Source: Methanobacteriota archaeon (GTDB lineage Archaea; Thermoplasmatota; Thermoplasmata; SG8-5; JAGLSY01). Taken from it: a DNA stretch of 64,000 bases. Position numbers and translations under genes: made by a program. The notes beneath the pieces were generated by a model. It saw nothing but the letters and a program-made list of their open reading frames with translations, searched no databases and had not been told where the DNA came from. Of the stretch, positions 1 to 57,827 are shown in pieces (position 1 is the stretch's first letter; each line of letters opens with the position of its first letter). The DNA lies in the NCBI GenBank assembly GCA_020696385.1, contig JAEHCQ010000004.1:192997-256996 (forward strand). Reading direction: 5' to 3'.

Positions 1-2
1 AG

Positions 3-650
3 TATTACTGGGTAATGGCCGCCCTTGGAGTGGTGGGCATGATCTACGGCGCTCTCATATGTCTCGCGCAGGTTGACCTGAAGAAAATGATCGCTTATTC
101 CAGTATCAGTCACATGGGATTCGTCCTGCTGGGCGCATCCACTCTCAATCTGATAGGCGTGGCTGGTGGAATTTACCAGATGTTCAGTCATGGTATTGTA
201 ACTGCTGTTCTTTTCATGATGTGCGGTGTCATCCATCACAAGACTGGAACAAGGGATATTCCAAAGCTGCAAGGCTTGATAACCAAAATGCCTCAAGCAT
301 CCTTCATCCTTATTGTGGGATTCCTTGCATCACTTGGTCTCCCGGGTCTGAATGGTTTCGTCAGCGAGCTCATGGTCTTCGTTGGAGCCTATGAAGCATA
401 TTCCATCCTCATAGTCGTGCCTTTGATAACACTGGCCATAGGAGCCGCTTACTATATCTGGACAATGCAGAGAATACTCATGGGCGACTTCAATAAAAAG
501 TTGGGAAATGTCACAGACCTTGAGAAATATGAATTGATACCATTGGCAATACTGGTGGTGTTCATCGTGTTCCTCGGTTTCTATCCAAACCCACTGCTTG
601 ATGTGATCTATCCTGCAGCCGAGGCAGTTCTGGGAGGTGTTGTAATATGA
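3..650 (+). CDS. nuoM: NADH:quinone oxidoreductase / Fpo-like subunit M, first copy (5'-truncated by window edge)
   Basis: Frame is open from base 3. DLKKMIAYSSISHMG, HG..TAVLF, LGLPGLNGFVSE and FYPNPLL align end-to-end with the C-terminal half of the next ORF; no NuoL-type C-terminal extension. Confidence 0.85.
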   Translation, partial: YYWVMAALGVVGMIYGALICLAQVDLKKMIAYSSISHMGFVLLGASTLNLIGVAGGIYQMFSHGIVTAVLFMMCGVIHHKTGTRDIPKLQGLITKMPQASFILIVGFLASLGLPGLNGFVSELMVFVGAYEAYSILIVVPLITLAIGAAYYIWTMQRILMGDFNKKLGNVTDLEKYELIPLAILVVFIVFLGFYPNPLLDVIYPAAEAVLGGVVI

Positions 651-2092
651 TACCATATCTATCTTTGATATTACTGATAACACTGTTGGGATCCGTCCTG
701 ACATATCTATTGGGCAAGAATGACAAAACTGCCAAGCTGGTAGCCATAATCTTCTCCATCATACCACTGGTCATATCCATCGTGATGTGGGCGACAATGG
801 ATTTCAATCTATTGGACTTCCAGTTCGTGGAGGATATCCCATGGATAAGCCAATTGGGAATATCATACACACTTGGTGTGGATGGATTGAGCTTCCCAAT
901 GGTCCTATTAGCAACAATACTGGTACCACTGGCTCTCATATTCTCTTGGGATGTCAAACACAAGGTGAGGGAGTTCTTCGCTCTGATGCTTATGCTGGAA
1001 GTTGCCATGATCGGTGTGTTCGTATCACTGGACATGTTCCTCTTCTTCATATTCTGGGAAGTTGGGCTTGTTCCAATGTACTTCCTCATATCAGTATGGG
1101 GAGGCCCAAGGAAGAAATACGCTTCTGTCAAGTTCTTCCTTTTCACCCAGGCAGCGAGTATACTTGTTCTGATGGGCATAGTGGCCATATACTTCGAGAT
1201 CGGCTCTTTCAGCCTTATCGACGCTCTGGCAAATGCAGGCTCCATGGCAAGGGCGGTTCAGATACCGATATTCCTCGGCTTCCTGATCGGTTTCGGTGCC
1301 AAGATGCCTATTGTACCATTACACACTTGGCTTCCAGATGCGCATGTTGAAGCTCCAACTGGAGGCAGCGTCATACTGGCGGGTGTCCTTCTGAAGATGG
1401 GAGGATATGGTTTGATAAGGTTTGGTATTCAACTGATGCCCGAGGCAAGGGAATATTTCATGCCTCTAATGGCCGCCATCGGTGTCATAAGTATGATCTA
1501 CGGAGCCATGCTCTGTCTGGCACAAACCGATTTCAAGCGTCTGATAGCGTATTCCAGTGTGAGCCACATGGGTCTTGTTCTTCTTGGTATCGCGACCATG
1601 ACGATGAATGGACTTAGCGGTGCTATCTTCCAGATGTTCGCACATGGTTTGGTATCCGGTGGTCTATTCATGATGGCCGGTGTCCTGCTTCACAAGACAG
1701 GTACCAGGGATATCAGGGTCCTCCGTGGTCTTGCACCAAAGATACCTCTTACGGCAGTTGCTCTGATCACCCTTTCAATGGCATCACTTGGACTTCCAGG
1801 TCTTGTTAGCTTCATAACAGAGGTTTTCATATTCGTGGGAACCTACGAGGCCTTCGGCCTCTGGGTATTCGTTCCACTGATAGCCGCTGTGCTTACAGCC
1901 GCCTATTATCTGTGGATGCTCCAGAAGGTTGTTTTCGGACCATACAATAAGAAGTTGGGCGATCATCTACATGACCTGTACAGCTATGAGCTCATACCTT
2001 TGGCAGTATTGATCTTCTTAATAGTGCTATTCGGAATATATCCAGCAGCGGTGATTAACATGATAACAGCCTTTTCAGGAGGGATAGTATGA
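647..2092 (+). CDS. nuoM: Complex I / Fpo-like subunit M, second copy
   Basis: LGVDGLS, FFIFWE, KMPIVPLHTWLPDAHVEAPTGGSVILAGVLLKMGGYG motifs; ATGA overlap with upstream gene. Confidence 0.95.
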   Translation: MIPYLSLILLITLLGSVLTYLLGKNDKTAKLVAIIFSIIPLVISIVMWATMDFNLLDFQFVEDIPWISQLGISYTLGVDGLSFPMVLLATILVPLALIFSWDVKHKVREFFALMLMLEVAMIGVFVSLDMFLFFIFWEVGLVPMYFLISVWGGPRKKYASVKFFLFTQAASILVLMGIVAIYFEIGSFSLIDALANAGSMARAVQIPIFLGFLIGFGAKMPIVPLHTWLPDAHVEAPTGGSVILAGVLLKMGGYGLIRFGIQLMPEAREYFMPLMAAIGVISMIYGAMLCLAQTDFKRLIAYSSVSHMGLVLLGIATMTMNGLSGAIFQMFAHGLVSGGLFMMAGVLLHKTGTRDIRVLRGLAPKIPLTAVALITLSMASLGLPGLVSFITEVFIFVGTYEAFGLWVFVPLIAAVLTAAYYLWMLQKVVFGPYNKKLGDHLHDLYSYELIPLAVLIFLIVLFGIYPAAVINMITAFSGGIV

Positions 2093-3558
2093 ATTATCTG
2101 ATATTACTTCCACAGATGATACTCGTGGCTATAGCCATGCTGATACCGGCCATTGACCTTTACGGCAAGGACAAAGCACGTATCTTGCCTTACCTGGCCT
2201 CAGGTGCTTTGGGAATTTCCCTACTGTTCCTGGCAATATTCACAGGCATCATTCCGCTTGAGATATTCGATATCACCATACCCACATCATTGTTCGGTGG
2301 AATGCTGGTCATAGACAGGTTCGCGCTATTCCTTCAATTACTGTTCGGAACGGTCACTCTTTTCGTAGTGATGGCATCATCCACCTACATCAAGAAGAAC
2401 GAGCGCAACCAGGGCGAGTATTATTCCCTGCTTCTGATCGCGACAGTCGGTATGATGGTCGTGGCAATGGCCAATGATCTGATAACATTGTTCATCGGTC
2501 TTGAGATCGCCAGTATATCATCATACGCACTTGCGGGCTTCAGAAAGAACGACAAAAAGAGTGCGGAAGCCGCGATGAAATACTTCATCATCGGTGCTCT
2601 GTCCTCGTCTATCGTTCTGTATGGAATATCATTGTTCTATGGATTGACTGGAACAACAGATCTTGCTCAGTTCGGAACTGCATTGTCAAACCTGAACTCA
2701 GGCCAGGATGGTCTGCTTGCAATGGCCACGATATTCCTCATCGCGGGATTCAGCTTCAAGGTCGCAGCAGCTCCATTCCATATGTGGGCTCCAGATGTCT
2801 ACCAGGGTGCGCCAACAACCATAACCACCTTCCTGGCCGCAGGGTCGAAGAAGATGGGATTCGCAGCCTTGTTCAAGGTCTTCCTTTTTGGTCTTATCTC
2901 ATTCAAGGCCGATTGGGCAATTGCTTTTGGAGTGATGGCAGCTCTTACCATGACAATTGGTAATCTCGCGGCATTGAAGCAACAGGACCTGAAGAGGATG
3001 CTCGCTTACTCGAGTATCGCACAGGCGGGTTACATAATGATGGCTCTGGCAGTTGCCACCCAGTATGCATTGGGCGGCGCATTGTTCCACATACTCACAC
3101 ACGCCTTCATGAAAACAGGTGCTTTCATAATCGTGGCAATGTTATCCGTCATGCTCATTGGCTCCAGGGTGGAGGATCTACGCGGTCTGAGGATCAAATC
3201 TCCGATCACGGCTTTCTGTATGGCGATAATGATGTTGTCATTGGCCGGAATTCCGCCTCTGGCAGGTTTCGCCTCCAAGTTCGTGCTGTTCTCCAGTGCG
3301 ATCGATGCTGGCGGCTGGCTTATCTGGCTTGCTGTGATAGCTGTCATAAACAGCGCTATCTCCCTGTACTACTATGCGAGGGTCCTGAAGGAGATGTACG
3401 TCCTGCCAACTGGAAAGAACAAGCCGATAAGGATGAAGGAACCACTGGCGATGTTGATACCTATTGTATTGGCAACGGCAGCCGTGATAATAATCGGTCT
3501 GTACCCCGCGCCTTTCGTGGATGCGGCAATGGACGCGGCAAGAGCTTTGATTCCATGA
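2089..3558 (+). CDS. nuoN: Complex I / Fpo-like subunit N
   Basis: SAEAAMKYFIIG, FKVAAAPFHMWAPDVYQGAP, KRMLAYSSIAQAGY, SLAGIPPLAGF. Confidence 0.95.
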   Translation: MNYLILLPQMILVAIAMLIPAIDLYGKDKARILPYLASGALGISLLFLAIFTGIIPLEIFDITIPTSLFGGMLVIDRFALFLQLLFGTVTLFVVMASSTYIKKNERNQGEYYSLLLIATVGMMVVAMANDLITLFIGLEIASISSYALAGFRKNDKKSAEAAMKYFIIGALSSSIVLYGISLFYGLTGTTDLAQFGTALSNLNSGQDGLLAMATIFLIAGFSFKVAAAPFHMWAPDVYQGAPTTITTFLAAGSKKMGFAALFKVFLFGLISFKADWAIAFGVMAALTMTIGNLAALKQQDLKRMLAYSSIAQAGYIMMALAVATQYALGGALFHILTHAFMKTGAFIIVAMLSVMLIGSRVEDLRGLRIKSPITAFCMAIMMLSLAGIPPLAGFASKFVLFSSAIDAGGWLIWLAVIAVINSAISLYYYARVLKEMYVLPTGKNKPIRMKEPLAMLIPIVLATAAVIIIGLYPAPFVDAAMDAARALIP

Positions 3559-3845: not shown

Positions 3846-3984
3846 AAGTTTCTTTACCGCCCTTTATAGCTATACAATATATATTATACAAAAGAATGAA
3901 ATGAATTATATATCGTATATGGCCCAAGTTTGGAATCGCCGTACGTATGAATATCAAACTTGGGATACGGGAGGCACGATATCG

Positions 3985-4539
3985 ATGACAGTTACTGATA
4001 AGAACAATGTCAAAAGTGATGAGATCATTACCGCGGATCAGCTCGATCTAAATTTCAAGTACGAGGTGGCCGAGGAGATAGGTGGCGAAGGAATTCTACA
4101 ATGTTTTCAATGCGGCACCTGCACGGCCACATGTCCAGTTCGTAAATTCGATCCAGACTTCAATGTGAGGAGAGTTATTCGTCTCACATTGCTCGGAGCC
4201 AAAGAGAAGGTCCTTACCAGTGACTTTGTCTGGATGTGTTCCACCTGTTATTCATGTTACGAGCTGTGCCCACAGAATGTCAAGATAACTGATGTCATGA
4301 CAGCTCTGAAGAACCTGGCCGTTAAGAATGGCCATGCTCATCCGAATGTCAAGGTCCACATTCCGATCCTGGAAGAGTTCGGTCACCTTGGTGAGATAAC
4401 TGAATTCGAGAACACTATCAGGGAGAAGCACGGTCTCCACGAGATCGTCCAGAACCCAGATAAGGTCAAACTTATCTTCGAGAAGCGCAAGTTGAAGCTC
4501 TTCATGGAAGGCAAGCTCAAAGATGAAGGAGGTGTGTGA
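3985..4539 (+). CDS. hdrC: Heterodisulfide reductase subunit C
   Basis: CFQCGTCTATCP and WMCSTCYSCYELCP; start moved to ATG 3985 after GGGAGG. Confidence 0.93.
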   Translation: MTVTDKNNVKSDEIITADQLDLNFKYEVAEEIGGEGILQCFQCGTCTATCPVRKFDPDFNVRRVIRLTLLGAKEKVLTSDFVWMCSTCYSCYELCPQNVKITDVMTALKNLAVKNGHAHPNVKVHIPILEEFGHLGEITEFENTIREKHGLHEIVQNPDKVKLIFEKRKLKLFMEGKLKDEGGV

Positions 4540-5418
4540 ATGGATTACCTACTCTACACCGGATGTACTGTTCCTTTGAGGGCGGTTGGATATGAAGTGG
4601 CTGCGATCAAGGTCGGAAAGGCATTGGGAGTCAACCTACTCCCAATGGAGGAATTCACCTGCTGCGGCTACCCGATAACATTCCTTGACAATGACAGTTC
4701 CATGGCTCTGGCAGTTCTGAATATCTGCCTTGCTGAGGAGAAGGGATTGAACATCGCGACATTATGCAATTCATGCACCGGTAATTTGACAAAGGCGAAT
4801 TACCGGATGAAGACCGAGGAGAAGTTCAGAAACAGGATCAATGAGCTCATCAGCCCGACTGGCCACCAATGGAAAGGAACTATCGAGATCAAACATTTCG
4901 CCAGGATCCTTTACGAGGATGTCGGAGAGGAAAAGATGAAAGCCAGAGTGACAAAAAGCCTGGCCGGCAGCAATATCGCTCCCATGTATGGCTGCCATTA
5001 TCTGAAACCTTCCAAGATCTATGATGGCTTTGATCATCCAGATCATCCAAAGTCCATGGAAACACTTATTGAGGCAACAGGCGCGAAACCAGTTGAATAT
5101 GTTGAGAAGACCCTTTGTTGCGGAGGTCCAATATTGGCACTTGGAGAGGAGATGCCAATGAACATGTCCCAGCGCATACTGGACGGTATGAAGAGAGAGA
5201 AGGCGGATGTCGCCGTCGTGGTGTGTCCCTTCTGCAATGTGATGATGGGTGAGTATCAATCCACCATCGGTGATAAGGCCGGGACAGAGTATGGAATACC
5301 CACTTTCTACATGCCACAGATAATCGGTCTGGCATTTGGTTTCACACCAAAGGAACTTGGCCTGAAAAAGAAACAGGTCAAGAAAGCATTTGGCGATATT
5401 TTAGAGGAGGTTGAATAA
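4540..5418 (+). CDS. hdrB: Heterodisulfide reductase subunit B
   Basis: Two CCG domains: YTGC/TCCG/CNSC and YGCH/LCCGG/CPFC. Confidence 0.93.
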   Translation: MDYLLYTGCTVPLRAVGYEVAAIKVGKALGVNLLPMEEFTCCGYPITFLDNDSSMALAVLNICLAEEKGLNIATLCNSCTGNLTKANYRMKTEEKFRNRINELISPTGHQWKGTIEIKHFARILYEDVGEEKMKARVTKSLAGSNIAPMYGCHYLKPSKIYDGFDHPDHPKSMETLIEATGAKPVEYVEKTLCCGGPILALGEEMPMNMSQRILDGMKREKADVAVVVCPFCNVMMGEYQSTIGDKAGTEYGIPTFYMPQIIGLAFGFTPKELGLKKKQVKKAFGDILEEVE

Positions 5419-8400
5419 TGACGGCTGACAAGAAAGGAGTTATGGTCATAGGAGGAGGTATTGGAGGTATTCAATCAGCTCTTGACCTGGCAGATTCTGG
5501 AGTGAATGTTTATCTGGTCGAGAAAGGCCCATCAGTTGGTGGCCGAATGGCCCAGCTGGACAAGACCTTCCCGACAAATGATTGTTCCATGTGTATCCTG
5601 TCGCCAAAGTTGGTCGCAGCATCCAGACACCCGAAGATCAATTTGTTGACAATGTCCGAAGTGAAGAAACTGGAAGGCGATCCAGGAAACTTCAAGGCTA
5701 CAATTATCACCCATCCGAGATACATCGACATTAGCAAGTGTGTTGGTTGTGGTGACTGCGCGGAGGTTTGCCCCATCGAAATGTCAAATGAGTTCGATGC
5801 TGGAACCGCCACGAGGGGAGCGACATACATTCCGTTCCCACAGGCCACTCCACTCAAATATTCAATTACAAGACACGGTACTCCACCTTGTGAGGCCGAG
5901 TGCCCAGCTGGAGTTCACGTTCAGGGTTATGTCGCACTTATTGCCAAGGGCAAGTACATGGAAGCTCTAGAGCTTCATAGGGAGTTCAACCCACTACCGA
6001 TAATCTGCGGCAGGGTTTGTCCACATACCTGTGAGAGCGTGTGTAACCGTGCGGAAGTGGATGAGCCGATCGCGATCGCTCATCTAAAGAGATTCATGGC
6101 AGCTTATGAGATGGATAATAGGGACGGACCTGTCGAGCCTTTCGACCAGACTGATGGCAAGACCATTGCCATCATTGGTTCAGGTCCTGCTGGATTGACA
6201 GCCGCTTATTACCTGGCCAGACACGGCCATAAGCCAACCATTTACGAAGCACTGCCAGTTGCTGGCGGTATGCTGAGAGTTGGTATCCCCGAGTACAGAT
6301 TACCAAGAGACTTACTCCAGGCTGAGATAGATTACATCAAGGCCAAGGGAGTGGACATCCAGCTTAATAAGAGGCTTGGAACTGACATAATGCTGGATAA
6401 TCTCAAAAGAGATTATGATGCAGTGTTCCTGGCTATAGGCTCTCATGTCTCAAAATCCATGAGAGTGACAGCGGAGGACACGCCAGGTGTAATTCCTGGT
6501 GTGGATTTCCTGCGTGATGTCAATCTGGGCAAGGAAGTTCAGCTTGGAAACAAGGTCGCCGTCGTTGGTGGCGGAGATGTCGCTATCGATGCTGTAAGGG
6601 TCGCTCACCGTCTGGGAAAAGAAGCCTTCATGATCTACAGAAGGACCAGGAACGAGATGCCCGCTCACGAAACTGAGATCGTCGATACCGAGGAAGAGGG
6701 TATCGAGATCAAATTCCTCACACAGCCTGTGAGAGTTGTCGAGACAGGCGGGAAGGTATCTGGTATCGAGTGCGTTCGTATGGAATTGGGAGAGCCAGAT
6801 GACAGCGGAAGGCGCAGACCAGTTCCGGTCGAAGGTTCTGAATTCATCATCGAAGTTGATAATATTATCCCAGCTATTGGCCAGGATTCCGATGTCGAGT
6901 ACCTCAAACAGGCAGGTATCAGTACGACGGATTGGAAGACCATCGTCGCATGTGAAGAAACCTACATGACCAGTGATGAAGGTGTGTTTGCTGCCGGAGA
7001 TGCAGTATCTGGCCCATGGACAGTTGTAGGTGCGGTTGGCGGAGCGAAGAAAGCCGCCGATGCTATCAATTCTTACCTCATTGGCGAGGATTTCCCGATG
7101 GAGTGCAAGCTCCAGGATGTCATCACTTTCGAGGATCTGATGCTGGAGAAAAAGCTGGAATCAGCCCCAAGAGCATGTGTTGACACTTTAGATGTCAAAC
7201 AGAGGGAATGCAATTTCAAGGAAGTTGTAGGCCAGCTTACGGAAGCACAGGCAGTTGCCGAGGCAGAGCGATGCTTAGCCTGTGGTGGTTGCTCGGGTTG
7301 CTGGCAATGTATCGGGGCTTGTGAAGCAGATGCTATAGATTTCTCACAGGAAGAGATCGAGCAGGAAGTGGATATCGGCTCTATCGTCGTTGCCACGGGA
7401 TTCGATCTAATCGATGCTGGCTTTAGGCCAGAGTACAATTATGAGAACTTTGACAATGTGATAACAGGTATCGAGTTTGAGAGATACCTGAGTGCATCCG
7501 GACCTACCAGCGGTCATCTTATCAGACCAAAGGATCACAAGCCTCCCAAGAAGATTGCCTTCATCCAGTGCGTGGGATCTAGGGATGAGCATTATGGATG
7601 CGCGTACTGTTCCAGAGTTTGCTGTATGTACGCGATCAAGGAAGCCATGCTGATCCGGGGCCATGACAAGGATGTTGAAGACATTACAATTTTCTTCATG
7701 GACATAAGGGCCTTTGGAAAAGGCTTTGAGCAATATTATGAGCGTGCGAAGGATGAGAACATAAACTTCTCAAGATCCAGGCCATCTCATTTCATAGAAG
7801 ATCCCGAGACTGGGGATGTATTGATCCAGACCGAAGATACAGAAACTGGTGAGATCAGCGAGTACCGAGCTGACCTCGTAGTTCTATCCTCAGCCATGGT
7901 GCCATCCAAAGGAACTGATGAACTGGCTGAGAAGCTGGGTGTGGAATTGAACGAGTCCGGTTTCTTCAAGGAAGGCGAGACTGACAATATCCCATTAGAA
8001 ACGACCAGGCCAGGAATTTATTCCTGCGGTTGCTCGTCAGGGCCTAAGGATATTCCAGATACTGTATCTCAAGCATCTGGAGCCGCCGCCAAAGCTGGCG
8101 AATGGGTGAAGGATTATAGGGCCGCGCCCGAGAAGAAGGATATCCCTCAAGTTGATGCATATGGCAAGCCCAGGATCGGTGTGTTCATCTGTCACTGTGG
8201 TCTGAACATCGGAGGAACTATCGATGTGGTGGATGTTGCCAAGTATGCGAAAGAACTTCCATATGTCGAGTACACTGATGCAAATGTTTACACTTGCTCG
8301 GAGAACACTCAGGGCGAGATCCAGGATCTCATACACAGTGAGAAACTGAACAGAGTGGTAATTGCTTCTTGCAGTCCACGAACCCACGAGCCTATTTTCA

Positions 8401-9863: not shown

Positions 9864-10310
9864 ATGACTGACAATAATGAGAACAATGAGAATTTCGAAC
9901 CAAAGATAATCGCCTTCCTCTGTACTTGGTGTTCATACGCAGGTGCGGATCTGGCAGGCTCGGCAAGGATACAGTACCCGACCAATGTGAAGATAATCAA
10001 GGTCATGTGCTCGAGCAGGATCAATCCACTCTTTGTACTGAGAGCTTTCAGGAAGGGAGCGGACGGTGTTCTTGTTTCAGGATGCCATCCTGGAGATTGC
10101 CACTATCTGACTGGTAATTACTTCACCAGGCGTAGACTTATCTTATTCAAGAAACAGCTGGAATGGGTAGGAATTGACCCTCGCAGATTTCACATGAGCT
10201 GGGTGTCCGCATCCGAAGGCCAGGGCTGGGCCGATGTGGTGAATAAAGTTATAGACGATGTCAAGGAGCTTGGTCCTCAGGATGAGATGAAAAGGAAGGT
10301 GGTTGAATGA
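9864..10310 (+). CDS. flxD: MvhD-like [2Fe-2S] subunit (FlxD)
   Basis: FLCTWCSYAGADLAG, VMCSSR, GCHPGDCHY. Confidence 0.9.
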   Translation: MTDNNENNENFEPKIIAFLCTWCSYAGADLAGSARIQYPTNVKIIKVMCSSRINPLFVLRAFRKGADGVLVSGCHPGDCHYLTGNYFTRRRLILFKKQLEWVGIDPRRFHMSWVSASEGQGWADVVNKVIDDVKELGPQDEMKRKVVE

Positions 10311-10365
10311 ATTCGTTATCACTCATCATTCAACTCGACACCTCCAAATTTATGGAGGTGTTGTC

Positions 10366-15102: not shown

Positions 15103-15103
15103 G

Positions 15104-42359: not shown

Positions 42360-42361
42360 TA

Positions 42362-51824: not shown

Positions 51825-52256
51825 ATGCAAATTGAAGAGTACACATTTCCGGATGACCTGTATTTCCACAAGGAACACTACTGGGCGAGAGTAGAAGGCG
51901 ACGTTGTAGTTATTGGCGTTAGCGATTTTGCACAGAAGCTGGCAGGAACAATTAAAAGAGTGGTCACACTGGAAGAAGACGATGAGATCGTCCGCGACAA
52001 GCCAATCGGTACATTGTCTAGCGGAAAATGGACAGGAAAATTATACGCACCAGTTAGTGGTGAGATAGTTGAGGTAAATGAGGAGATCGAGGATGAGCCA
52101 AACCTTATCAACGACGATCCTTACGGAGAAGGCTGGGTCATAAAAGTAGAACCTAGCGACCTTGACGGTGACCTTGCACAGCTGATGAAGCCAGGCCCAG
52201 AATTCGAGGTCTGGATGAAGAAAGAGATCGAAGAGAAGAAAGCTTTGGTAAAGTAA
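51825..52256 (+). CDS. Second GcvH-like lipoate-binding protein
   Basis: EHYWARVEG, GVSDFAQ, GTLSSGKWTGKLYAPVSG, INDDPYGEGW. Confidence 0.9.
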   Translation: MQIEEYTFPDDLYFHKEHYWARVEGDVVVIGVSDFAQKLAGTIKRVVTLEEDDEIVRDKPIGTLSSGKWTGKLYAPVSGEIVEVNEEIEDEPNLINDDPYGEGWVIKVEPSDLDGDLAQLMKPGPEFEVWMKKEIEEKKALVK

Positions 52257-52647: not shown

Positions 52648-53730
52648 TCAGCGTTTGAAGATCGGCTTGCAGTTCACAGCTCGATTCATTCTGTCTGGTC
52701 CCAATAATCTCATCGACATTTCCAGAGTCCAGTTCCTCTTGAAGGCCTTGTCCGCCATCCTCTTTGTATCCAGAGCATTGTCCAGCTCTGGGCCGACATT
52801 CAACCTCCACTCCTCCTCATATTTCTCAAGAGGTGTGTTGTCCTTGAAATGTTCGGATATGACATTGCCAGCGATCCTGCCGCATATCATGGATATCGGT
52901 ATGCCGCCTCCATTTGTCGCCATCACCTGTCCAGCCGCATCCCCGACTATCATGACATTACCCTTGACAGTTTTCGGGATGGGCCCTGATATTGGAACAA
53001 ATCCCGCACTTAGCTGCTCGATCTTTCCCAGGCCTCGGACCTTGAGGAATTTGTCAAGCATCTTCCTCAATGACACATTCCCTGTCTTCTGAATGCCAAG
53101 GCCGACATTCGCTCCGTCGCCCTTTGGGATCACCCAGGCATATCCGCCAGGGGCTATTGTGCCGAAGAACATCTCCACGATCGGCTCGAAATCCCCGGAT
53201 ACCTGTCCGAGCATGCAGGGGCACAGGACATGCTCGACCTGCATTCCCGCGGATCTGGCAACATTGGATTTGAAACCATCTGCTCCGACAACTATCTTTG
53301 CTTTTATGCTTCCTTTATCGGTCTCGACGATGTCGCCCTTCAGGGACTTGAACTTCGTCCCTGTTCGGAGCTCTGCTCCCGCCTCTGTCGCCTTGCTGGC
53401 CAGATGTTTGTCGAAGTATCTTCTATCAACTGTGAATCCTTCAAAATCAATATCATATTTCCGGTTCTTCGGTGATACGAACCGGATCTTCTCCGTCTTC
53501 ATCTTGATAAGCCTGTCATCGATATTGAAAAGCTCTGATTGATCCTTGACACGGGGTATGATCCTTTGCATTTCCTTGGTGGATGGTATGAATTCCCCGC
53601 ATTGAACAGGCTCCCCAACCGCCTTTCTCTGGTCGATGATTATCACATTCAAACCAGACTTGGCTGCATAATGCGCTGTTGAACTTCCAGCAGGCCCGGC
53701 TCCGATAACTGCGACATCGAATTCTTCCAT
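52648..53730 (-). CDS. Geranylgeranyl / prenyl reductase
   Basis: GAGPAGS, GEPVQCGE, APGGYAWVIPKG, GDAAGQV...GGGI. Confidence 0.9.
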   Translation of the reverse strand: MEEFDVAVIGAGPAGSSTAHYAAKSGLNVIIIDQRKAVGEPVQCGEFIPSTKEMQRIIPRVKDQSELFNIDDRLIKMKTEKIRFVSPKNRKYDIDFEGFTVDRRYFDKHLASKATEAGAELRTGTKFKSLKGDIVETDKGSIKAKIVVGADGFKSNVARSAGMQVEHVLCPCMLGQVSGDFEPIVEMFFGTIAPGGYAWVIPKGDGANVGLGIQKTGNVSLRKMLDKFLKVRGLGKIEQLSAGFVPISGPIPKTVKGNVMIVGDAAGQVMATNGGGIPISMICGRIAGNVISEHFKDNTPLEKYEEEWRLNVGPELDNALDTKRMADKAFKRNWTLEMSMRLLGPDRMNRAVNCKPIFKR

Positions 53731-53760
53731 TTTCAATCACTCTGTTCTCGTTAATGATCA

Positions 53761-54732
53761 TCAATGATTTCTGTCCACTGCGAAATCGGACAGTGCCAAT
53801 AGCTTGTCCCACTCTTCAGTTCTGGTATTAATCTGCTCCAATGCATCCCTCGCCTTGTTACCATATACCACGGATAGACTGTTGGCATAATCAATTGAGC
53901 CAACAGCTTTCATTATCCTGATGGCCTCCATTATGTCATCATTGGAGTTCTCATTATTTGTTATGACCTTCTTCATATGGTCATTGTCCGAACCTTCGGA
54001 ATTATTAAGTGCATGAATGGAAAGGATGGTCATTTTACCCTCGTTCAGATCATTCCCTATGGCCTTGCCAGTATTGCTCTTCGAGCCCACCACATCGAGG
54101 ACATCATCCATTATCTGGAAACCGATGCCCATATTGAGCCCGTAATCGCTCAATAGCTCGGTGTCCTTCTCGGAAGCACCAGCCATGAGCCCTCCGGCCT
54201 TTGAACTGGCAGAAATGGGCCCCGCGGTTTTCTGCTCGATGATATTGAGATAATCCTGCTCTGAAAGCTTGACATTCTGGATATTCTGGGATTGTATGAT
54301 CTCACCAATCGCCTGTGATATGCAGGCTCCTGTGATGGTGTCCCTGATCTCCTTATTGTATTCGCTGAGCAATTCGAAAGCTTTGACAAAGAGATAATCA
54401 CCTGTTAAAAGTGCCGCGCTGGTTCCGAACTTCACATGGGCTGTCTGTATGCCTCTTCTCACCACACTTCTGTCATTGATATCATCATGTATCAATGTCC
54501 CTGTGTGGATGAGCTCCATGGATGCCGCCAGGGGAACCGCACTTTGGATGTCTGTGCCGTTCAGGGCCTTGTAGGCGGACAGCATGACAGCTGGCCTGAT
54601 CCTCTTGCCACCTGAATCTATCACGTGGTGGGATACCTTCTCGATAATGGCAATACCACAGTTGATATTGTCGTTAATGATATCATCTACGAGTTTCATT
54701 TCCTCGGATGAGTATAATTCAACGTCCATCAT
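53761..54732 (-). CDS. Polyprenyl diphosphate synthase (probably long-chain)
   Basis: GGKRIRP, HTGTLIHDDIND..RRG, KT, FQIMDDVLD. Confidence 0.92.
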   Translation of the reverse strand: MMDVELYSSEEMKLVDDIINDNINCGIAIIEKVSHHVIDSGGKRIRPAVMLSAYKALNGTDIQSAVPLAASMELIHTGTLIHDDINDRSVVRRGIQTAHVKFGTSAALLTGDYLFVKAFELLSEYNKEIRDTITGACISQAIGEIIQSQNIQNVKLSEQDYLNIIEQKTAGPISASSKAGGLMAGASEKDTELLSDYGLNMGIGFQIMDDVLDVVGSKSNTGKAIGNDLNEGKMTILSIHALNNSEGSDNDHMKKVITNNENSNDDIMEAIRIMKAVGSIDYANSLSVVYGNKARDALEQINTRTEEWDKLLALSDFAVDRNH

Positions 54733-55156: not shown

Positions 55157-56245
55157 CTACCTGTCAGTTTCACCAATACAGACATCGATGCTTCCCATTA
55201 TCGAGGGCACATCCGCGATCCTGTTGCCGATAAGTATGGTTGGTGCGGCCGAGATATTGATGAATGCCGGGCTCTTGATATCCACTCTGTATGGCTTATC
55301 TGTACCATTGCCTATCATGTGCATGGATGAGTCGCCTCTTGGATCTGCTGTTCTGGTGAACACCTCTGATCCTTTTGGAGCTGTTTTAGGAACCTTCTGA
55401 GCCATGATGGGGCCAGCTGGCATGTCCTTAAGAGCCTGCTTGATTATGTTCATGCTCTCTCTCATCTCATTCATTCTCACACGGTATCTGGAATAGCAGT
55501 CGCCTCTCTTCTCGACGCAAATGGCGAAATCAAGCTTATCATAAACAAGGTATGGATCATGCCTTCTCAGATCATATGGAACTCCACTGGCACGAAGATT
55601 TGGACCAGTGACTCCCAGGTCAATAGCATCGCCGGGTTTCAATACACCGACCTCCATCGTCCTCATGAGGATCATGTCATTGTCATCCATCATGCCCTCG
55701 TATTCGAGTAATTTCTCCTCAAGAACAGCTATCTGCTTGAGGGTTTCCTCCTCGAATCTGTCAGGGGTGTCATTCCTCACTCCGCCGATCCTCGTGTAAT
55801 CGTACATGAGCCTTCCACCGGAGATCATCTGCATGAGATCCATGAATAATTCACGCTCTCTCATCGGATAAAGGAACATTGTCAATATCCCAAGGTCGGC
55901 AGCGTATGCCGCTAGCCAAAGAAGATGGTTGATGATCCTCTGTATCTCCAATGTGATAACTCTGATATATTGCGCCCTCTCAGGAGCCACAACACCCATG
56001 AGATCCTCTACTGTGAAAACATAAAGCGAACTCCAGGAATGTGCCGAACCATAGCAAAGCCTGTCTGCCAGAGGTATGCTCTGAGGAAAGGTACGGTTCT
56101 CCATGATCTTCTCGATCCCACGGTGAAGGTATCCCACTTCAGGTATTGCATCTGTTATGGTCTCACCGTCGATCTTGACCTTCAATGTCCATAGTCCATG
56201 GGTCATCGGATGTTGCGGACCCATGTTCACCCACATCTCTGCCAT
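55157..56245 (-). CDS. nuoD: Complex I / Fpo-like subunit D
   Basis: NMGPQHPMTHG, GYLHRGIEK, RLCY, IGETDR; no NiFe CxxC pairs. Confidence 0.93.
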   Translation of the reverse strand: MAEMWVNMGPQHPMTHGLWTLKVKIDGETITDAIPEVGYLHRGIEKIMENRTFPQSIPLADRLCYGSAHSWSSLYVFTVEDLMGVVAPERAQYIRVITLEIQRIINHLLWLAAYAADLGILTMFLYPMRERELFMDLMQMISGGRLMYDYTRIGGVRNDTPDRFEEETLKQIAVLEEKLLEYEGMMDDNDMILMRTMEVGVLKPGDAIDLGVTGPNLRASGVPYDLRRHDPYLVYDKLDFAICVEKRGDCYSRYRVRMNEMRESMNIIKQALKDMPAGPIMAQKVPKTAPKGSEVFTRTADPRGDSSMHMIGNGTDKPYRVDIKSPAFINISAAPTILIGNRIADVPSIMGSIDVCIGETDR

Positions 56246-56246
56246 A

Positions 56247-56894
56247 TTATTCAGACCTCCTGCATTCTGCTTGCCATTTTTCAGGCTTATCATTTAATTT
56301 GTAATTCTTCCTCAATGGGAAGAAATCAGCATCGTCCCTCAGCATTATCCTTCTGAGGTCTGGATGGTTCTCGAAATTGATGCCGAACATATCGTATATT
56401 TCCCTTTCATACCAGTTCGCCGCGCGCCATACTCCACAGACCGTGTGGACACTGGGATCATTCTTTGGCAAGGATACGGTGAATACCAAAACTGGTGCGT
56501 GGCTTAGTGAAAAGAGCATGTAGGTGACATCGAAACCAGTTCTTCTGTCTACCCCTGAAATAAAACTCACGCCTTTGTAGTCCATTTCATTCTTCAATAT
56601 ATTGCAGGTCTCGATCAATTTCTCTGCCGATACCTTGAACTCAATCCTTCTGGGCAGTGTGATCTTCATATCCTCTATGTCTGGGAACCTGTCCTTTAAC
56701 ATCTGAAGGACAGTTTGCTCGTCAGTCATCCCGATCATCAGTTTATGTTCGAGCTCATTTATGTCGAACAGCTCTGCCTTATTTTTGGATGACTGCTTTT
56801 GATTGTTGGTTTCTGGAGCCTTTTGATTACGGATGGGTGGCTGGCCTTGTCCGATGATCTCTGGTGCTTCTGGCTGCTCATGCTCATTCATCAA
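56247..56894 (-). CDS. nuoC: Complex I subunit C
   Basis: ANWYEREIYDMFGINFENHPDLRRI...FPLRK. Confidence 0.92.
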   Translation of the reverse strand: MMNEHEQPEAPEIIGQGQPPIRNQKAPETNNQKQSSKNKAELFDINELEHKLMIGMTDEQTVLQMLKDRFPDIEDMKITLPRRIEFKVSAEKLIETCNILKNEMDYKGVSFISGVDRRTGFDVTYMLFSLSHAPVLVFTVSLPKNDPSVHTVCGVWRAANWYEREIYDMFGINFENHPDLRRIMLRDDADFFPLRKNYKLNDKPEKWQAECRRSE

Positions 56895-57477
56895 TTACCA
56901 CCTCTTCATCAAGATTGAACATGCCCTGCTTATTCGCCTTGATCATCTCTTGGAACTTGAATAGGCCATCAAAGAAGGCCTCCGGTCTTGGAGGGCATCC
57001 AGCTATGTAAATGTCAACTTTCATTATCTTGTCAACGCCTTCAATGATATTGTACGATTCCCAGAAAGGCCCTCCGCTTATGGAGCATTCGCCCATCGCC
57101 ATTACCCATTTTGGCTCTGGCATCTGTTCATAAAGTGTGACGAGCTTCTTTGCCAGCTTGAAGCTGACTGGCCCATTGACAATTAGCATATCGCACTGCC
57201 TGGGGCTTGACCTTGGAAGAACTCCGAACCTTTCCATATCGAATCTTGGTCCGAAGGTCGCCATCGGGCTCTCCAGTGCGCAGCATGCGATACCGAAATG
57301 AAGGGGATAGATAGAATTCCTCTGGGCCCAGTTGAAGAAGTCGGTCGTGACATAGTTCACAACCTTGTCTATCTTACTATTCTTGAGAAATCTTTTGGTG
57401 ATATCATCGAACCAGTCCAGAAAATCCTCGGAGTTCAGCATTGCGACGGTCGCGTCGCCAGTATCGCCTATATCCAA
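56884..57477 (-). CDS. nuoB: Complex I subunit B
   Basis: FGIACCALE, RSSPRQCD, QMPEPKWV, AGCPPRPE. Confidence 0.95.
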   Translation of the reverse strand: MDIGDTGDATVAMLNSEDFLDWFDDITKRFLKNSKIDKVVNYVTTDFFNWAQRNSIYPLHFGIACCALESPMATFGPRFDMERFGVLPRSSPRQCDMLIVNGPVSFKLAKKLVTLYEQMPEPKWVMAMGECSISGGPFWESYNIIEGVDKIMKVDIYIAGCPPRPEAFFDGLFKFQEMIKANKQGMFNLDEEVVIDE

Positions 57478-57827
57478 ATTTTCGCCTCCTTTTTAAGCGC
57501 GTACATCAATCCAAGCGAAAGAATTCCGATGAATATGAGTATGGATATCGAGCTTTTGATATCCATTCCCTGGAACACCACTGCCCAGATCATCAAGAAC
57601 ACGACCACGATATCGAATACGACAAAGATGATAGCGAACATGTAGTATTGGAAGTGGAACTGTATCTTCGCTTCACCTACTGGTATCGATCCGCACTCGT
57701 ACGTAGTATCTTTTATCTTGGTCAATTTGGTTGGTCTGAAATACCTGTTTAGGAAAAACACTGCCGCTGGGAATATCAGGCCTACTATCGCGAACACAAA
57801 CACTGGGAAGTAATCTTCTGACAGCAT
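57468..57827 (-). CDS. nuoA: Complex I subunit A
   Basis: TTYECGSIP, YYMFAIIFVVFDI; start moved to ATG 57827. Confidence 0.92.
   Translation of the reverse strand: MLSEDYFPVFVFAIVGLIFPAAVFFLNRYFRPTKLTKIKDTTYECGSIPVGEAKIQFHFQYYMFAIIFVVFDIVVVFLMIWAVVFQGMDIKSSISILIFIGILSLGLMYALKKEAKIWI

What the first reader, a model, noticed from the sequence alone, without database searches (positions are those of the whole stretch)
1..57827. Whole-chain extracellular electron transfer island in a probable Thermoplasmatota archaeon
Seen: about 58 kb carrying Flx-Hdr, an Fpo-like 2M complex without NuoEFG, MenG, a prenyl synthase and reductase, two cytochrome b/multiheme c pairs, two surface monoheme cytochromes, an ECN-like tetraheme, a ~35-heme giant and Ccm. 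Known: such parts underlie metal reduction or interspecies electron transfer in Geobacter, Archaeoglobi and ANME. Inference: the genes encode a continuous path NADH/ferredoxin -> menaquinone -> cytochrome wire in a lineage not usually regarded as electroactive.
Basis: partly seen in the sequence, partly recalled or inferred. Interest (0 to 1): 0.9.

Follow-up and report, generated by a model that had tools for sequence, protein, structure and literature searches.

The report
Electron-export gene island in a Thermoplasmata archaeon
An uncultured, non-methanogenic Thermoplasmata archaeon keeps all its multiheme cytochromes, their maturation genes, a relative of a known archaeal cytochrome nanowire and a proton-pumping complex in one gene neighbourhood, which probably lets it pass respiratory electrons to minerals or partner cells.

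Summary
All four ORFs in the 2.28-Mb genome with four or more CxxCH motifs lie in the window, together with CcmABCE and CcmF. The window also carries two cytochrome b/multiheme pairs, two monoheme surface proteins, a Flx-Hdr-like set and a MenG/UbiE methyltransferase. An 11-subunit Fpo-like complex has two NuoM and a 23-residue insertion in NuoL.

The tetraheme is a true homologue of the Archaeoglobus veneficus nanowire AvECN (PDB 8E5G, profile E 6.6e-21). The giant cytochrome has 30 haem motifs, not about 35. The same gene order in a second species' 248-kb contig argues against a chimera. Named relatives are Thermoplasmata MAGs, and no MCR was found.

Corrections:
- 29.2–35.5 kb is a LipS1/LipS2 lipoate-assembly cluster.
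- No quinone head-group pathway was found, so the menaquinone step is inferred only.
- The nuo genes are split, and nuoHIJKL lies upstream of the window.

New points:
- The nanowire gene sits in a conserved cassette with an archaeal-type signal peptidase I. That peptidase reached the family cut-off only in nanowire-bearing relatives (5 of 5, against 0 of 20).
- The giant cytochrome begins with a nanowire-like module.

Outward extracellular electron transfer is the best reading (about 0.55). Expression and haem loading are untested.

The parts
3..650 (+). C-terminal part of the first NuoM (507 aa; the gene starts upstream at G000:C44:192123)
   Evidence: Pfam Proton_antipo_M. The full gene scores TIGR01972 547.4 bits against a cut-off of 263.8.
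647..2092 (+). Second NuoM (481 aa), 53% identical to the first
   Evidence: TIGR01972 539.7 bits. BLASTP between the two M genes gives 53% identity.
2089..3558 (+). NuoN
   Evidence: TIGR01770 407.8 bits against a cut-off of 332.6.
3901..5418 (+). HdrC-like (Fer4_8) and HdrB-like (CCG domains)
   Evidence: Pfam.
5418..9863 (+). 1481-aa HdrA2-like flavoprotein with a GltD-like NAD(P)-binding insert (residues about 144-655)
   Evidence: NF040770 1028.9 bits (cut-off 1100). PRK12771 593 bits. Pfam.
9864..13422 (+). MvhD/FlxD-like, two Fe-S proteins (FlxC/FlxB-like, one HydB/AsrA-like) and a FlxA-like NAD(P)/FAD/2Fe-2S protein
   Evidence: Pfam FlpD, Fer4_22, NAD_binding_1 and DHODB_Fe-S_bind. 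NCBIfam ShyB/HydB- and HydG/AsrB-like hits, all below cut-offs.
13844..16660 (-). CcmE (C-terminal CPSKY), CcmC, CcmB, CcmA
   Evidence: Pfam. The CcmE C-terminus was read. The archaeal CxxxY/no-CcmH variant is recalled (Allen et al. 2006); one search showed only that paper's title and that CcmH homologues were found solely in Ferroglobus placidus (PMC4429474).
16689..17393 (-). Cytochrome b, FdnI/HydC type, 4 TM helices
   Evidence: PF01292 E 2.7e-11. TIGR01583 below cut-off. TM scan.
17394..18599 (-). Octahaem c cytochrome with N- and C-terminal TM segments
   Evidence: 8 CxxCH. Cytochrome_C7 and c3_2. Only marginal NrfA similarity in PDB.
18596..19489 (-). Monohaem surface protein with a CARDB domain and a PGF-CTERM-like tail
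   Evidence: 1 CxxCH. CARDB. The C-terminus reads PAPGF, then a TM segment, then a basic tail. Archaeosortase A is present in the genome.
19508..21046 (-). GlcD-like FAD-linked 2-hydroxyacid oxidoreductase; its start overlaps the stop of the upstream membrane protein
   Evidence: Pfam FAD_binding_4 and FAD-oxidase_C. TIGR00387 below cut-off. Coordinates.
21043..21810 (-). Divergent cytochrome b561-like membrane protein
   Evidence: BLASTP to the cytochrome b at 16689 gives E 2e-6. In the ESM Atlas, 25 of 30 hits are PF01292 clusters, score 0.90. No Pfam family over cut-off.
21819..23168 (-). 14-motif c cytochrome (11 CxxCH and 3 CX3-4CH) with a membrane-anchored NrfH/NapC-like head
   Evidence: TIGR03153 46.6 bits on residues 45-161, below the 134 cut-off.
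23754..25457 (+). Unknown secreted/TM protein, paralogue of 42362-43834
   Evidence: No Pfam or NCBIfam family. tblastn paralogy.
25564..27672 (+). CcmF
   Evidence: Pfam Cytochrom_C_asm and CcmF_C.
27897..29195 (+). HdrD/TmcB/DsrK-like CCG iron-sulfur protein
   Evidence: Pfam CCG and Fer4_8. NCBIfam TfrB, TmcB, HmcF and DsrK hits, all below cut-offs.
29192..35478 (.). Lipoate assembly cluster: LplA-like, GcvH-like, LipS2, LplA-DUF116, a GGR-family flavoprotein, LipS1. Probably not part of the electron path.
   Evidence: LipS1 235.4 bits against 230. LipS2 229.8 against 270 (best hit)..
36059..36757 (+). MenG/UbiE-family quinone C-methyltransferase
   Evidence: PF01209 163.9 bits. TIGR01934 193.5 against 158.35.
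36829..38579 (+). Monohaem protein with a C-terminal TM anchor, and a PKD-domain protein; the first two genes of the conserved nanowire cassette
   Evidence: Conserved next to the nanowire gene in G016 and G207.
38765..39388 (+). AvECN-type tetrahaem nanowire subunit homologue (207 aa)
   Evidence: phmmer to PDB 8e5g_A gives 2.4e-12. A profile of 19 homologues gives 6.6e-21 over positions 6-194 of 203. 8E5G is AvECN (PMC12954529).
39477..40346 (+). Archaeal/ER-type signal peptidase I (SipW-like)
   Evidence: TIGR02228 67.4 bits against 51.85. Over cut-off in 5 of 25 genomes, the same 5 that carry the nanowire gene.
40365..42359 (+). TPR, Cys-pair and multi-TM membrane protein of the cassette
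   Evidence: Pfam TPR. TM scan. Co-occurs with the peptidase in 7 of 8 metagenome loci.
42362..43834 (+). Unknown secreted/TM protein with an acidic coiled-coil tail
   Evidence: No family found. Conserved in G016.
43912..51654 (-). Giant c cytochrome (2580 aa ORF; 2576 aa in the public gene call). It has a nanowire-like tetrahaem head, a haem-free region of tandem repeats of about 105 aa, then a CxxxxCH/CxxCH array.
   Evidence: 30 motifs. Pfam GSu_C4xC__C2xCH. Head homology E 4.9e-15 and alignment A2. Repeats.
51825..52256 (+). Second GcvH-like lipoyl carrier
   Evidence: PF01597 122 bits.
52648..54732 (-). GGR-family reductase and trans-polyprenyl diphosphate synthase (candidate quinone side-chain genes)
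   Evidence: The residues before the first DDxxD motif are small, and paralogues exist elsewhere in the genome.
55157..57932 (-). NuoD, NuoC, NuoB, NuoA, convergent with nuoH-N
   Evidence: Pfam.

Best explanation
The region encodes the respiratory electron-export system of a non-methanogenic Thermoplasmata archaeon.

Proposed flow (inferred from families and gene order):
1. Cytoplasmic modules feed electrons in. These are a Flx-Hdr-like NAD(P)H/ferredoxin/disulfide complex, a GlcD-like dehydrogenase and an HdrD-like CCG protein.
2. An 11-subunit, NuoEFG-less Fpo-like complex with an extra NuoM pump oxidises a low-potential donor, probably ferredoxin. It reduces a membrane carrier and pumps protons.
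3. Two membrane modules carry electrons to the outer face. One is an FdnI-type cytochrome b with an octahaem. The other is a cytochrome b-like protein with an NrfH-headed 14-haem cytochrome.
4. Anchored monohaem proteins, a 30-haem surface cytochrome and a polymerising AvECN-type tetrahaem carry them on to Fe(III)/Mn(IV) minerals, humics or a partner cell.
5. CcmABCEF loads the haems.

Shown here: presence, family membership, co-location, conservation and patchy distribution of the genes.
Inferred: direction of flow, identity of the membrane carrier, filament formation and the acceptor.
For: - All 4 of 4 ORFs with four or more CxxCH lie here, next to the Ccm genes.
- The tetrahaem is homologous to a solved archaeal nanowire, with all four CxxCH aligned and 3 invariant plus 1 nearly invariant non-motif His, candidate distal ligands.
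- Both large cytochromes and both b-type proteins have membrane or secretion signals. One monohaem protein has a PGF-CTERM-like tail, and archaeosortase A is present.
- In this 94.5%-complete genome no other terminal reductase family was found among those searched: no COX1, cytochrome bd or molybdopterin oxidoreductase, and no MCR.
- A two-M complex with a lengthened NuoL fits a large driving force such as ferredoxin to a quinone-level carrier.
- The Hdr/Flx, Ccm, cytochrome, MenG and prenyl genes stay clustered, though in a different order, in G016 from another family of the order.
- CcmF, the nanowire gene and the peptidase are found together in genus g1 and in G016, and none of the three was found in most other relatives searched.
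- The layout parallels the published ANME model: cytochrome b/multihaem oxidoreductase, small cytochromes and a giant surface cytochrome (PMC9012536, passages read).
Against: - No quinone head-group pathway was found. PF02621 gave no match, the best MenB-like hit is 135 bits against a cut-off of 342.7, and only MenG/UbiE, two UbiA-family genes and a polyprenyl synthase are present.
- There is no expression, haem or physiology evidence.
- Pfam reported only cytochrome families on the giant cytochrome and no S-layer domain. Its surface location rests on repeats shared with other giant surface proteins.
- The structure model of the tetrahaem was poor (pLDDT 52), so fold identity with AvECN rests on sequence alone.
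- The genome has two [NiFe] hydrogenases, so fermentation with H2 release may be the main electron sink.
- Part of the stretch (lipoate assembly, OsmC) is unrelated housekeeping.
Confidence: 0.55

Rival explanations
1. Same hardware, but quinone-independent. A Tmc/Hmc/DsrMK-like transmembrane wire links a cytoplasmic thiol/disulfide couple, or the GlcD-like dehydrogenase, directly to the extracellular cytochromes through the two b-type membrane proteins. In this reading Flx-Hdr makes the reduced thiol and the HdrD-like protein re-oxidises it.
For: - No quinone ring pathway was found.
- The CCG protein's NCBIfam hits include TmcB, HmcF and DsrK.
- The GlcD-like gene overlaps the stop of the b-type membrane gene, and the order 14-haem / b-like / GlcD-like is kept in G016.
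- Elsewhere in the genome GlcD-like and HdrD-like genes are adjacent pairs.
- Hdr genes travel with Ccm genes in G016.
Against: - MenG/UbiE scores above its subfamily cut-off.
- A polyprenyl synthase with small residues before the first DDxxD motif sits next to a GGR-family reductase.
- The 14-haem protein has an NrfH/NapC-type head, which in known systems oxidises quinol (the family role is recalled).
- A complex-I-type enzyme normally needs a lipophilic acceptor.
- All TmcB/HmcF/DsrK scores are far below cut-offs.
Confidence: 0.2
2. Electron uptake rather than export. The cytochromes take electrons from Fe(II), a cathode-like mineral or a syntrophic partner. The two-M complex then runs in reverse to make reduced ferredoxin.
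For: - Two-M complexes have been proposed to run in reverse in Nitrospira and 'Ca. Manganitrophaceae' (PMC9040806, passages read).
- Multihaem conduits are reversible in principle (general knowledge).
Against: Reverse flow needs a proton motive force generated by a higher-potential acceptor. No haem-copper oxidase, cytochrome bd or molybdopterin reductase was found in the 94.5%-complete genome.
Confidence: 0.1
3. The cytochromes reduce a soluble or colloidal acceptor at the cell surface, such as polysulfide/S0, chelated Fe(III), humics or nitrogen oxides. There is no long-range wire, and the tetrahaem acts as a monomeric shuttle.
For: - Filament formation is not shown for this protein.
- The AvECN-like family is large (309 representative clusters at E <= 1e-3), and few members have been studied.
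Against: - The motif scan for C-x(2-4)-C-H found only His-ending haem motifs. Lys-ending (CxxCK) motifs were not searched for.
- Only marginal similarity to NrfA or octahaem enzymes was found.
- The N-terminal segment and all candidate haem ligands are conserved with the filament-forming AvECN.
Confidence: 0.1

Closest known systems
AvECN, the extracellular cytochrome nanowire of Archaeoglobus veneficus (PDB 8E5G; Baquero et al. 2023, paper not held, identity of the entry taken from PMC12954529)
   Same: Significant sequence homology over nearly the whole protein. Four aligned CxxCH motifs. A conserved N-terminal hydrophobic segment followed by an LF-x-x-QH-x-W-type motif.
   Different: The protein is shorter (207 against 262 aa) and comes from a mesophile-like Thermoplasmata MAG. 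Filament formation is untested. Here it lies in a cassette with a signal peptidase I and a giant cytochrome carrying the same head. I could not check whether AvECN's own locus has these.
ANME-2/3 electron-export model: Mco (VhtC cytochrome b with a 7- or 11-haem cytochrome), small cytochromes and giant S-layer cytochromes (Chadwick et al. 2022, PMC9012536)
   Same: Cytochrome b next to a multihaem cytochrome. A cytochrome of about 30 hemes with a large haem-free surface-type domain. A dedicated Ccm system. An Fpo-type complex and Hdr complexes as inputs (compared).
   Different: No MCR was found. Pfam reported only cytochrome families on the giant cytochrome and no S-layer domain; it has repeats of about 105 aa instead. 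The b-type proteins are FdnI/b561-like. The carrier is unknown, whereas ANME use methanophenazine.
Geobacter inner-membrane quinol oxidases CbcL (b-type plus multihaem c) and ImcH/CymA-type NapC/NirT proteins, and the Geobacter CxxxxCH/CxxCH giant cytochromes (roles recalled, not read here)
   Same: An FdnI-type b cytochrome paired with a multihaem c. An NrfH/NapC-like head on the 14-haem protein. The giant carries the Pfam GSu_C4xC__C2xCH repeat and is 25% identical to Geobacter and Nitrospirae proteins.
   Different: Separate genes rather than one polypeptide. No outer membrane or porin. Archaeal anchors (PGF-CTERM-like, N-terminal TM).
2M complex I (Chadwick et al. 2018, as summarised in PMC9040806)
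   Same: A second NuoM and an insertion of similar length (23 against 26 residues) in the C-terminal amphipathic region of NuoL.
   Different: The backbone is an archaeal Fpo-like enzyme without NuoEFG. The operon is split into nuoABCD and nuoHIJKLMMN, convergent and 52 kb apart. NuoI carries four Fer4 motifs.
Bacillus subtilis tapA-sipW-tasA fibre operon (PMC9245690)
   Same: A fibre subunit gene lies next to a dedicated ER/archaeal-type signal peptidase I and a second secreted protein that may anchor or start the fibre. SipW is the second-best NCBIfam hit of the peptidase.
   Different: The fibre subunit here is a cytochrome, not a jelly-roll protein. The analogy is one of gene organisation only.
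Desulfovibrio FlxABCD-HdrABC (recalled from Ramos et al. 2015, not read here)
   Same: HdrA, B, C plus MvhD-like FlxD, HydB-like Fe-S proteins and a HydG-like NAD(P)H flavoprotein in one operon.
   Different: The gene order is reversed. HdrA is fused to a GltD-like NAD(P)-binding module (1481 aa). The thiol/disulfide substrate is unknown, and DsrC and CoM/CoB synthesis were not searched for.

Membership tests
AvECN-type cytochrome nanowire subunit | Sequence homology to the solved subunit | tested here: met
   phmmer 2.4e-12. Profile 6.6e-21 over positions 6-194 of 203.
AvECN-type cytochrome nanowire subunit | Four CxxCH with four further conserved His as candidate distal ligands | tested here: met
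   In 19 homologues H31, H94 and H141 are invariant, H57 is at least 90% conserved, and all four CxxCH are invariant.
AvECN-type cytochrome nanowire subunit | Same fold | tested here: inconclusive
   The AlphaFold2 model had mean pLDDT 52.4, so no fold search was run.
AvECN-type cytochrome nanowire subunit | Polymerises into an extracellular filament | not testable with these tools
   Needs cryo-EM of appendages.
2M complex I | Two NuoM genes besides NuoL and NuoN | tested here: met
   TIGR01972 547.4 and 539.7 bits. NuoL NF005141 642.6 bits. NuoN TIGR01770 407.8 bits.
2M complex I | Insertion of about 26 residues in the NuoL lateral helix | tested here: met
   A 23-residue insertion before the last TM helix relative to 3 of 3 single-M homologues aligned. 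The criterion is taken from PMC9040806.
Ferredoxin-dependent Fpo-like complex (11 subunits, no NuoEFG) | NuoA, B, C, D, H, I, J, K, L, M, N present with no NuoE/F/G beside them | tested here: met
   NuoF-like domains occur only in proteins of about 1065 aa on C47 and C22. FpoF/FpoO were not searched for.
Archaeal System I cytochrome c maturation | CcmA, B, C, E, F with a CxxxY-type CcmE | tested here: met
   CcmE ends in CPSKY. CcmH was not searched for. The CxxxY/no-CcmH definition is recalled from Allen et al. 2006; one search showed only that paper's title.
Menaquinone biosynthesis | A head-group pathway (futalosine MqnA/D or classical MenB) plus MenA and MenG | tested here: not met
   PF02621 gave 0 matches. 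The best MenB hit is 135.4 bits against 342.7. MenG/UbiE is present. Two UbiA-family genes have unassigned function. The genome is 94.5% complete.
Cytochrome b / multihaem quinol:cytochrome c oxidoreductase (Mco/CbcL-like) | A b-type membrane cytochrome encoded next to a multihaem c cytochrome | tested here: met
   The pair at 16689-18599 is clear. For the pair at 21043-23168 the b-type assignment is lead-level only.
ANME-type S-layer multihaem cytochrome | S-layer (DUF1608) domain inside the cytochrome | tested here: not met
   Pfam reports only three cytochrome families on the giant protein. The haem-free part is a different repeat.
FlxABCD-HdrABC | All seven subunit types in one cluster | tested here: met
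   Domain-level assignments. All equivalog scores are below cut-offs, so orthology is not shown.
LipS1/LipS2 lipoate assembly | Both radical-SAM lipoyl synthase halves with a ligase and a lipoyl carrier | tested here: met
   LipS1 235.4 against 230. LipS2 229.8 against 270 (below cut-off but the best hit). Two LplA-type genes and GcvH.
Fibre operon with a dedicated signal peptidase (TapA-SipW-TasA-like organisation) | The peptidase is adjacent to the fibre gene and distributed with it | tested here: met
   Adjacent in G000, G001, G002, G016 and G207. TIGR02228 is over cut-off in 5 of 5 nanowire-positive and 0 of 20 nanowire-negative relatives. 8 of 20 evaluable metagenome loci have it. Cleavage itself is not testable here.

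The most novel reading that the evidence does not exclude
AvECN-type cytochrome nanowires may have their own assembly cassette. It would comprise a SipW-like signal peptidase I, a TPR/multi-TM membrane protein and a second, larger cytochrome with the same processed N-terminal head.

The peptidase would cut both precursors just before a conserved LF-x-x-QH-x-W segment. The larger cytochrome, here the 30-haem giant, could then join one end of the filament as its base or mineral-contacting tip. That would give a genetic handle on how cytochrome wires are started, anchored and terminated, which a 2025 preprint calls unanswered (10.1101/2025.10.22.684050).
Probability: 0.3. Interest if true: 0.8.

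Novelty: new variant of a known kind. Interest (0 to 1): 0.62.

Why it matters
Cytochrome-based electron export in archaea is documented mainly for Archaeoglobi, ANME/Methanoperedens, some Methanosarcina and Pyrobaculum. A 2015 survey found c cytochromes in Thermoplasmata only in two single-cell genomes (PMC4429474).

This locus would add a non-methanogenic sediment lineage of Thermoplasmata, related to the Methanomassiliicoccales, to the candidate metal reducers or electric syntrophs.

It also offers a compact, conserved gene set for testing how archaeal cytochrome wires are processed and anchored. The set comprises the nanowire subunit, a co-distributed signal peptidase, a membrane TPR protein and a nanowire-headed giant cytochrome. 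In addition it shows a two-M, lengthened-NuoL variant of the archaeal Fpo-like complex.

Tried and rejected
- **Structure route.** The AlphaFold2 model of the tetrahaem from 19 sequences was poor (pLDDT 52.4), so no fold search was run.
- **Complex prediction** (nanowire subunit with the giant's head and 4 hemes): no answer. It is not used as evidence either way.
- **The look-up of sequencing runs** on 36800-44000: no run was listed and no RNA holder was listed.
- **Recent-transfer test by composition.** The six 10-kb windows covering the window region (C44 190001-249999) rank at the 26th to 71st percentile of 218 windows for tetranucleotide distance. This gives no sign of recent import and cannot exclude an old one.
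- **16S rRNA.** None is present in the assembly.
- **Enzyme role for the octahaem.** Only marginal NrfA similarity was found (best E 1.3e-4 over about 58 residues), so this was rejected.
- **Sulfur-oxidising sHdr/LbpA reading of the lipoate genes.** It was considered and set aside. HdrA here is the large HdrA2/GltD type with MvhD and Flx partners, a glycine-cleavage T protein exists, and no E2 was found. Ordinary glycine cleavage is enough to explain the lipoate genes.
- **Housekeeping role for the peptidase.** It is the only TIGR02228 match in the genome. However, the family was also not found over cut-off in 20 of 20 nanowire-negative relatives. The general signal peptidase of this order therefore seems to escape the model, and the gene here travels with the nanowire gene.
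- **Literature.** Searches found no description of this locus. Baquero et al. 2023 is not held, so I could not see whether Thermoplasmata homologues or the peptidase neighbourhood are mentioned there. Supplements were not requested.

Full report
**What is in the window.** Six-frame ORFs, a motif count and Pfam/NCBIfam scans give a dense map of about 52 genes. Left to right:
- Two NuoM genes and NuoN (3-3558, +).
- A Flx-Hdr-like operon (3901-13422, +). It holds HdrC, HdrB, a 1481-aa HdrA2-like protein with a GltD-like NAD(P)-binding insert, MvhD, two Fe-S proteins and a HydG/AsrB-like flavoprotein.
- A run of ten minus-strand genes from 23168 down to 13844. It encodes a 14-motif cytochrome, a b-like membrane protein, a GlcD-like flavoenzyme and a monohaem CARDB protein. 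An octahaem, an FdnI-type cytochrome b and CcmA, B, C, E follow.
- An unknown secreted protein, CcmF and an HdrD-like CCG protein (23754-29195, +).
- A lipoate-assembly cluster (29192-35478), OsmC, and MenG/UbiE (36059-36757).
- A cassette of a monohaem protein, a PKD protein, a tetrahaem, signal peptidase I, a TPR membrane protein and an unknown protein (36829-43834, +).
- A 2580-aa cytochrome (43912-51654, -).
- GcvH, a GGR-family reductase, a polyprenyl synthase, and NuoD, C, B, A (55157-57932, -).
- To the right lie a Tag glycosylase, an AsnC-type regulator and ABC transporters.

**Is it more than chance, and is the contig sound?**
- The window is G000:C44:192997-256996, the end of a 257-kb contig. 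The genome has 2.28 Mb in 50 contigs, 94.5% completeness and 0.39% contamination.
- Among all ORFs of at least 80 aa on contigs over 2 kb, the four with four or more CxxCH are all in the window. The next best has two.
- A second species of the same genus (G002) has a 248,019-bp contig, the length of the record titled 'Methanobacteriota archaeon'. On it, 47 of 52 window proteins lie in the same order at 48-99% identity. This argues against a chimeric assembly.
- The 10-kb windows across the region rank at the 26th to 71st percentile of 218 genome windows for tetranucleotide distance.

**Who is it?**
- NuoD is 97% identical to a MAG titled 'Methanobacteriota archaeon' and 86% to a 'Thermoplasmata archaeon'. 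It is 52-58% identical to two 'Methanomassiliicoccales' MAGs.
- Named homologues of the tetrahaem and of the giant cytochrome are Thermoplasmata.
- No MCR alpha domain was found and no 16S gene is assembled.
The order could not be named.

**The complex-I-type enzyme.**
- NuoH, a 255-aa NuoI with four Fer4 motifs, NuoJ, NuoK and a 650-aa NuoL lie just upstream of the window.
- The next three genes are NuoM (507 aa), NuoM (481 aa) and NuoN. The two M genes are 53% identical.
- Three homologous operons have L-M-N with a single M: two Methanomassiliicoccales MAGs and one Bacteroidales MAG.
- Against all three, NuoL here has a 23-residue insertion just before the last transmembrane helix. This matches the criterion for '2M' complexes as summarised in PMC9040806.
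- No NuoE/F/G lies beside the genes.
- The operon is split. nuoABCD is on the opposite strand, 52 kb away and convergent. A class relative (G207) has nuoABCDHIJKL contiguous.
- NuoD of G207 is 54% identical. The best matches in the sister genus and in two genomes of the same order are only 35-38%. In the sister genus the match lies in an Mbh-like cluster. The enzyme itself is thus patchily distributed.

**Cytochromes and their maturation.**
- The giant has 22 CxxCH and 8 CX3-4CH motifs. It has one N-terminal TM segment and a haem-free stretch (about residues 343-1172).
- That stretch consists of tandem repeats of about 105 residues. The repeats are shared with other giant PKD/CARDB surface proteins of related archaea.
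- Its C-terminal array belongs to the Geobacter CxxxxCH/CxxCH repeat family.
- The 14-motif protein has two N-terminal TM segments and an NrfH/NapC-like head, with a score below cut-off.
- The membrane protein next to it resembles the FdnI-type cytochrome b of the other pair (BLASTP 2e-6). In the ESM Atlas 25 of 30 hits are PF01292 clusters.
- One monohaem protein ends in PAPGF, a TM segment and a basic tail. The genome encodes archaeosortase A.
- CcmE ends in CPSKY. This is the archaeal CxxxY variant as I recall it from Allen et al. 2006; one search showed only that paper's title in PMC4429474.

**The nanowire homologue and its cassette.**
- The 207-aa tetrahaem matches PDB 8e5g_A at 2.4e-12. 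A profile of 19 homologues matches at 6.6e-21.
- 8E5G is AvECN, the Archaeoglobus veneficus nanowire (PMC12954529).
- All four CxxCH align. Three further His are invariant and one is nearly so.
- A search of 1.84 billion representatives finds 309 clusters at E <= 1e-3.
- Of the 147 newly fetched, 117 are at most 300 aa, and 80 of these have exactly four CxxCH. The other 30 are longer proteins with 4-27 CxxCH;'s table most of them match the profile from their first residues.
- 122 of the 147 have QH-x-[W/F/Y] within the first 90 residues. 109 have small residues in a -3/-1 pattern a few positions upstream. This points to signal peptidase I cleavage just before a conserved N-terminal segment bearing a candidate haem ligand.
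- The same profile hits the N-terminus of the giant cytochrome at E 4.9e-15. The alignment shows the same hydrophobic segment, the same VS/LF-x-x-QHDW junction, four CxxCH and three of the four extra His.
- The gene after the tetrahaem is an archaeal-type signal peptidase I (TIGR02228 67.4 bits against 51.85; SipW is the second-best hit).
- In 25 genomes of the genus, family, order and class, this family is over cut-off in 5. These are exactly the 5 in which the nanowire profile was found. It is over cut-off in 0 of the other 20.
- These are only two or three independent lineages, so the count overstates independence. A further class relative, G207, has the same cassette.
- Among 80 metagenome loci with distant family members (about 30% identity), 20 have at least 3 kb downstream. 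Of these, 8 carry a homologous peptidase on the same strand, 6 of them within 200 bp. 7 also carry the TPR membrane protein.
- In 5 of the 8, an ORF of 348-529 codons with the nanowire-like head lies beside the peptidase.
- This organisation recalls tapA-sipW-tasA of Bacillus (PMC9245690).
- A 2025 preprint states that secretion, initiation and termination of cytochrome wires are unresolved. It found no tip candidate in OmcE operons.

**Distribution.**
- CcmF is found in 9 of 41 relatives at E <= 0.001 (8 of them with over 200 bits). It occurs in 4 of 4 genomes of the genus but was not found in the one sister-genus genome. It was found in 1 of 17 other genomes of the order.
- The nanowire profile is found in 7 of 401 class genomes, one of them weakly.
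- G016, from another family of the order, keeps nearly all island genes in pieces. Some arrangements differ: Hdr lies next to Ccm, and FlxA next to the prenyl genes.
- In the sister genus, synteny ends right after GatD, where nuoH begins here.
- Gain and loss cannot be told apart with these data.

**What the chain lacks.**
- No MqnA/D family was found, and MenB-like hits are well below cut-off. Two UbiA-family genes have unknown role.
- MenG/UbiE is above its subfamily cut-off.
- The polyprenyl synthase has small residues before the first DDxxD motif. From memory this marks long-chain enzymes. A paralogue exists elsewhere in the genome.
- The carrier is therefore unknown.
- A Tmc/Hmc-like route through the HdrD-like protein or the GlcD-like enzyme is a live alternative. 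The CCG protein's below-cut-off hits include TmcB, HmcF and DsrK.
- No COX1, cytochrome bd or molybdopterin enzyme was found. Two [NiFe] hydrogenases are present.

**Not part of the path.**
- 29192-35478 encodes LplA-type ligases, GcvH, LipS2, a GGR-family flavoprotein and LipS1.
- A glycine-cleavage T protein and a third GcvH lie elsewhere in the genome.

**Literature.**
- Four searches and passages from nine papers gave no description of this locus.
- Kletzin et al. 2015 found c cytochromes in Thermoplasmata only in single-cell genomes (abstract and passages).
- Gulay et al. 2023 place Thermoplasmata sequences in an MtrA-like tree (passage).
- A 2026 meta-analysis lists Thermoplasmata among iron-cycling taxa (table).
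- Zinke et al. do not discuss multihaem cytochromes in clades basal to the Methanomassiliicoccales (passages).
- Baquero et al. 2023 and all supplements could not be seen.

**Verdict.** The most likely function is outward extracellular electron transfer. The membrane carrier, expression and filament formation remain open. The co-distributed signal peptidase and the nanowire-headed giant cytochrome are the new, testable points.

Noticed in passing
G000:C44:188646-189413 (L008:15647-16414), upstream of the window: NuoI is 255 aa and carries four Fer4 motifs instead of two. The extra di-cluster domain may be the docking or entry site for ferredoxin in this NuoEFG-less complex.
   Followed up: no
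window 1-3558 and 55157-57932; L043 (G207:C85): The nuo operon is split between nuoD and nuoH. nuoABCD is inverted and lies 52 kb away, so the cytochrome, Hdr and lipoate genes sit between the halves. A class relative has nuoABCDHIJKL contiguous.
   Followed up: partly
window 5418-9863: HdrA is fused with a GltD/NfnB-like NAD(P)-binding module (1481 aa). Separate paralogues of both halves exist on C48, C22, C47 and C11.
   Followed up: no
window 48200-50600 (residues about 400-1130 of the giant cytochrome): Tandem repeats of about 105 residues with no Pfam family. They are shared with giant PKD/CARDB/'choice-of-anchor J' surface proteins of related archaea. This is an undescribed surface-protein repeat.
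   Followed up: partly
window 23754-25457 and 42362-43834: Two paralogous proteins of no known family. Each has a signal peptide, an extracellular domain, one TM helix and an acidic coiled-coil tail with a conserved C-terminal motif. One sits beside CcmF and the other inside the nanowire cassette. They evolve fast: 48% and 71% identity to G002, where neighbours are around 90%.
   Followed up: partly
window 31784-33337: An LplA-type catalytic domain is fused to DUF116 (517 aa) within the LipS1/LipS2 cluster. Two GcvH-like genes are in the window and a third is on C47.
   Followed up: no
relatives G004-G024: The archaeal signal peptidase I model TIGR02228 is not met over cut-off in 20 of 20 nanowire-negative relatives, several of them 91-97% complete. 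The general signal peptidase of this order is therefore either very divergent or of another type.
   Followed up: no
G002:C28, about 217050-219725 and 241840-246500: The sister species has extra DNA relative to the window at two points: about 2.7 kb between the LipS1 and OsmC genes, and about 4.6 kb between nuoA and the tag glycosylase gene. The content was not examined.
   Followed up: no
window 60061-60855 (-): A 264-aa ORF lies antisense to and overlapping the ABC-transporter ATPase gene at 60653-61678. It is probably a shadow ORF and was not scanned.
   Followed up: no
G000:C47:36437-47639: Two [NiFe] hydrogenase large-subunit genes lie next to a 1065-aa NuoF-like fusion protein. This is a possible soluble NAD(P)- or ferredoxin-linked hydrogenase module that competes with the cytochrome route for electrons.
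   Followed up: no
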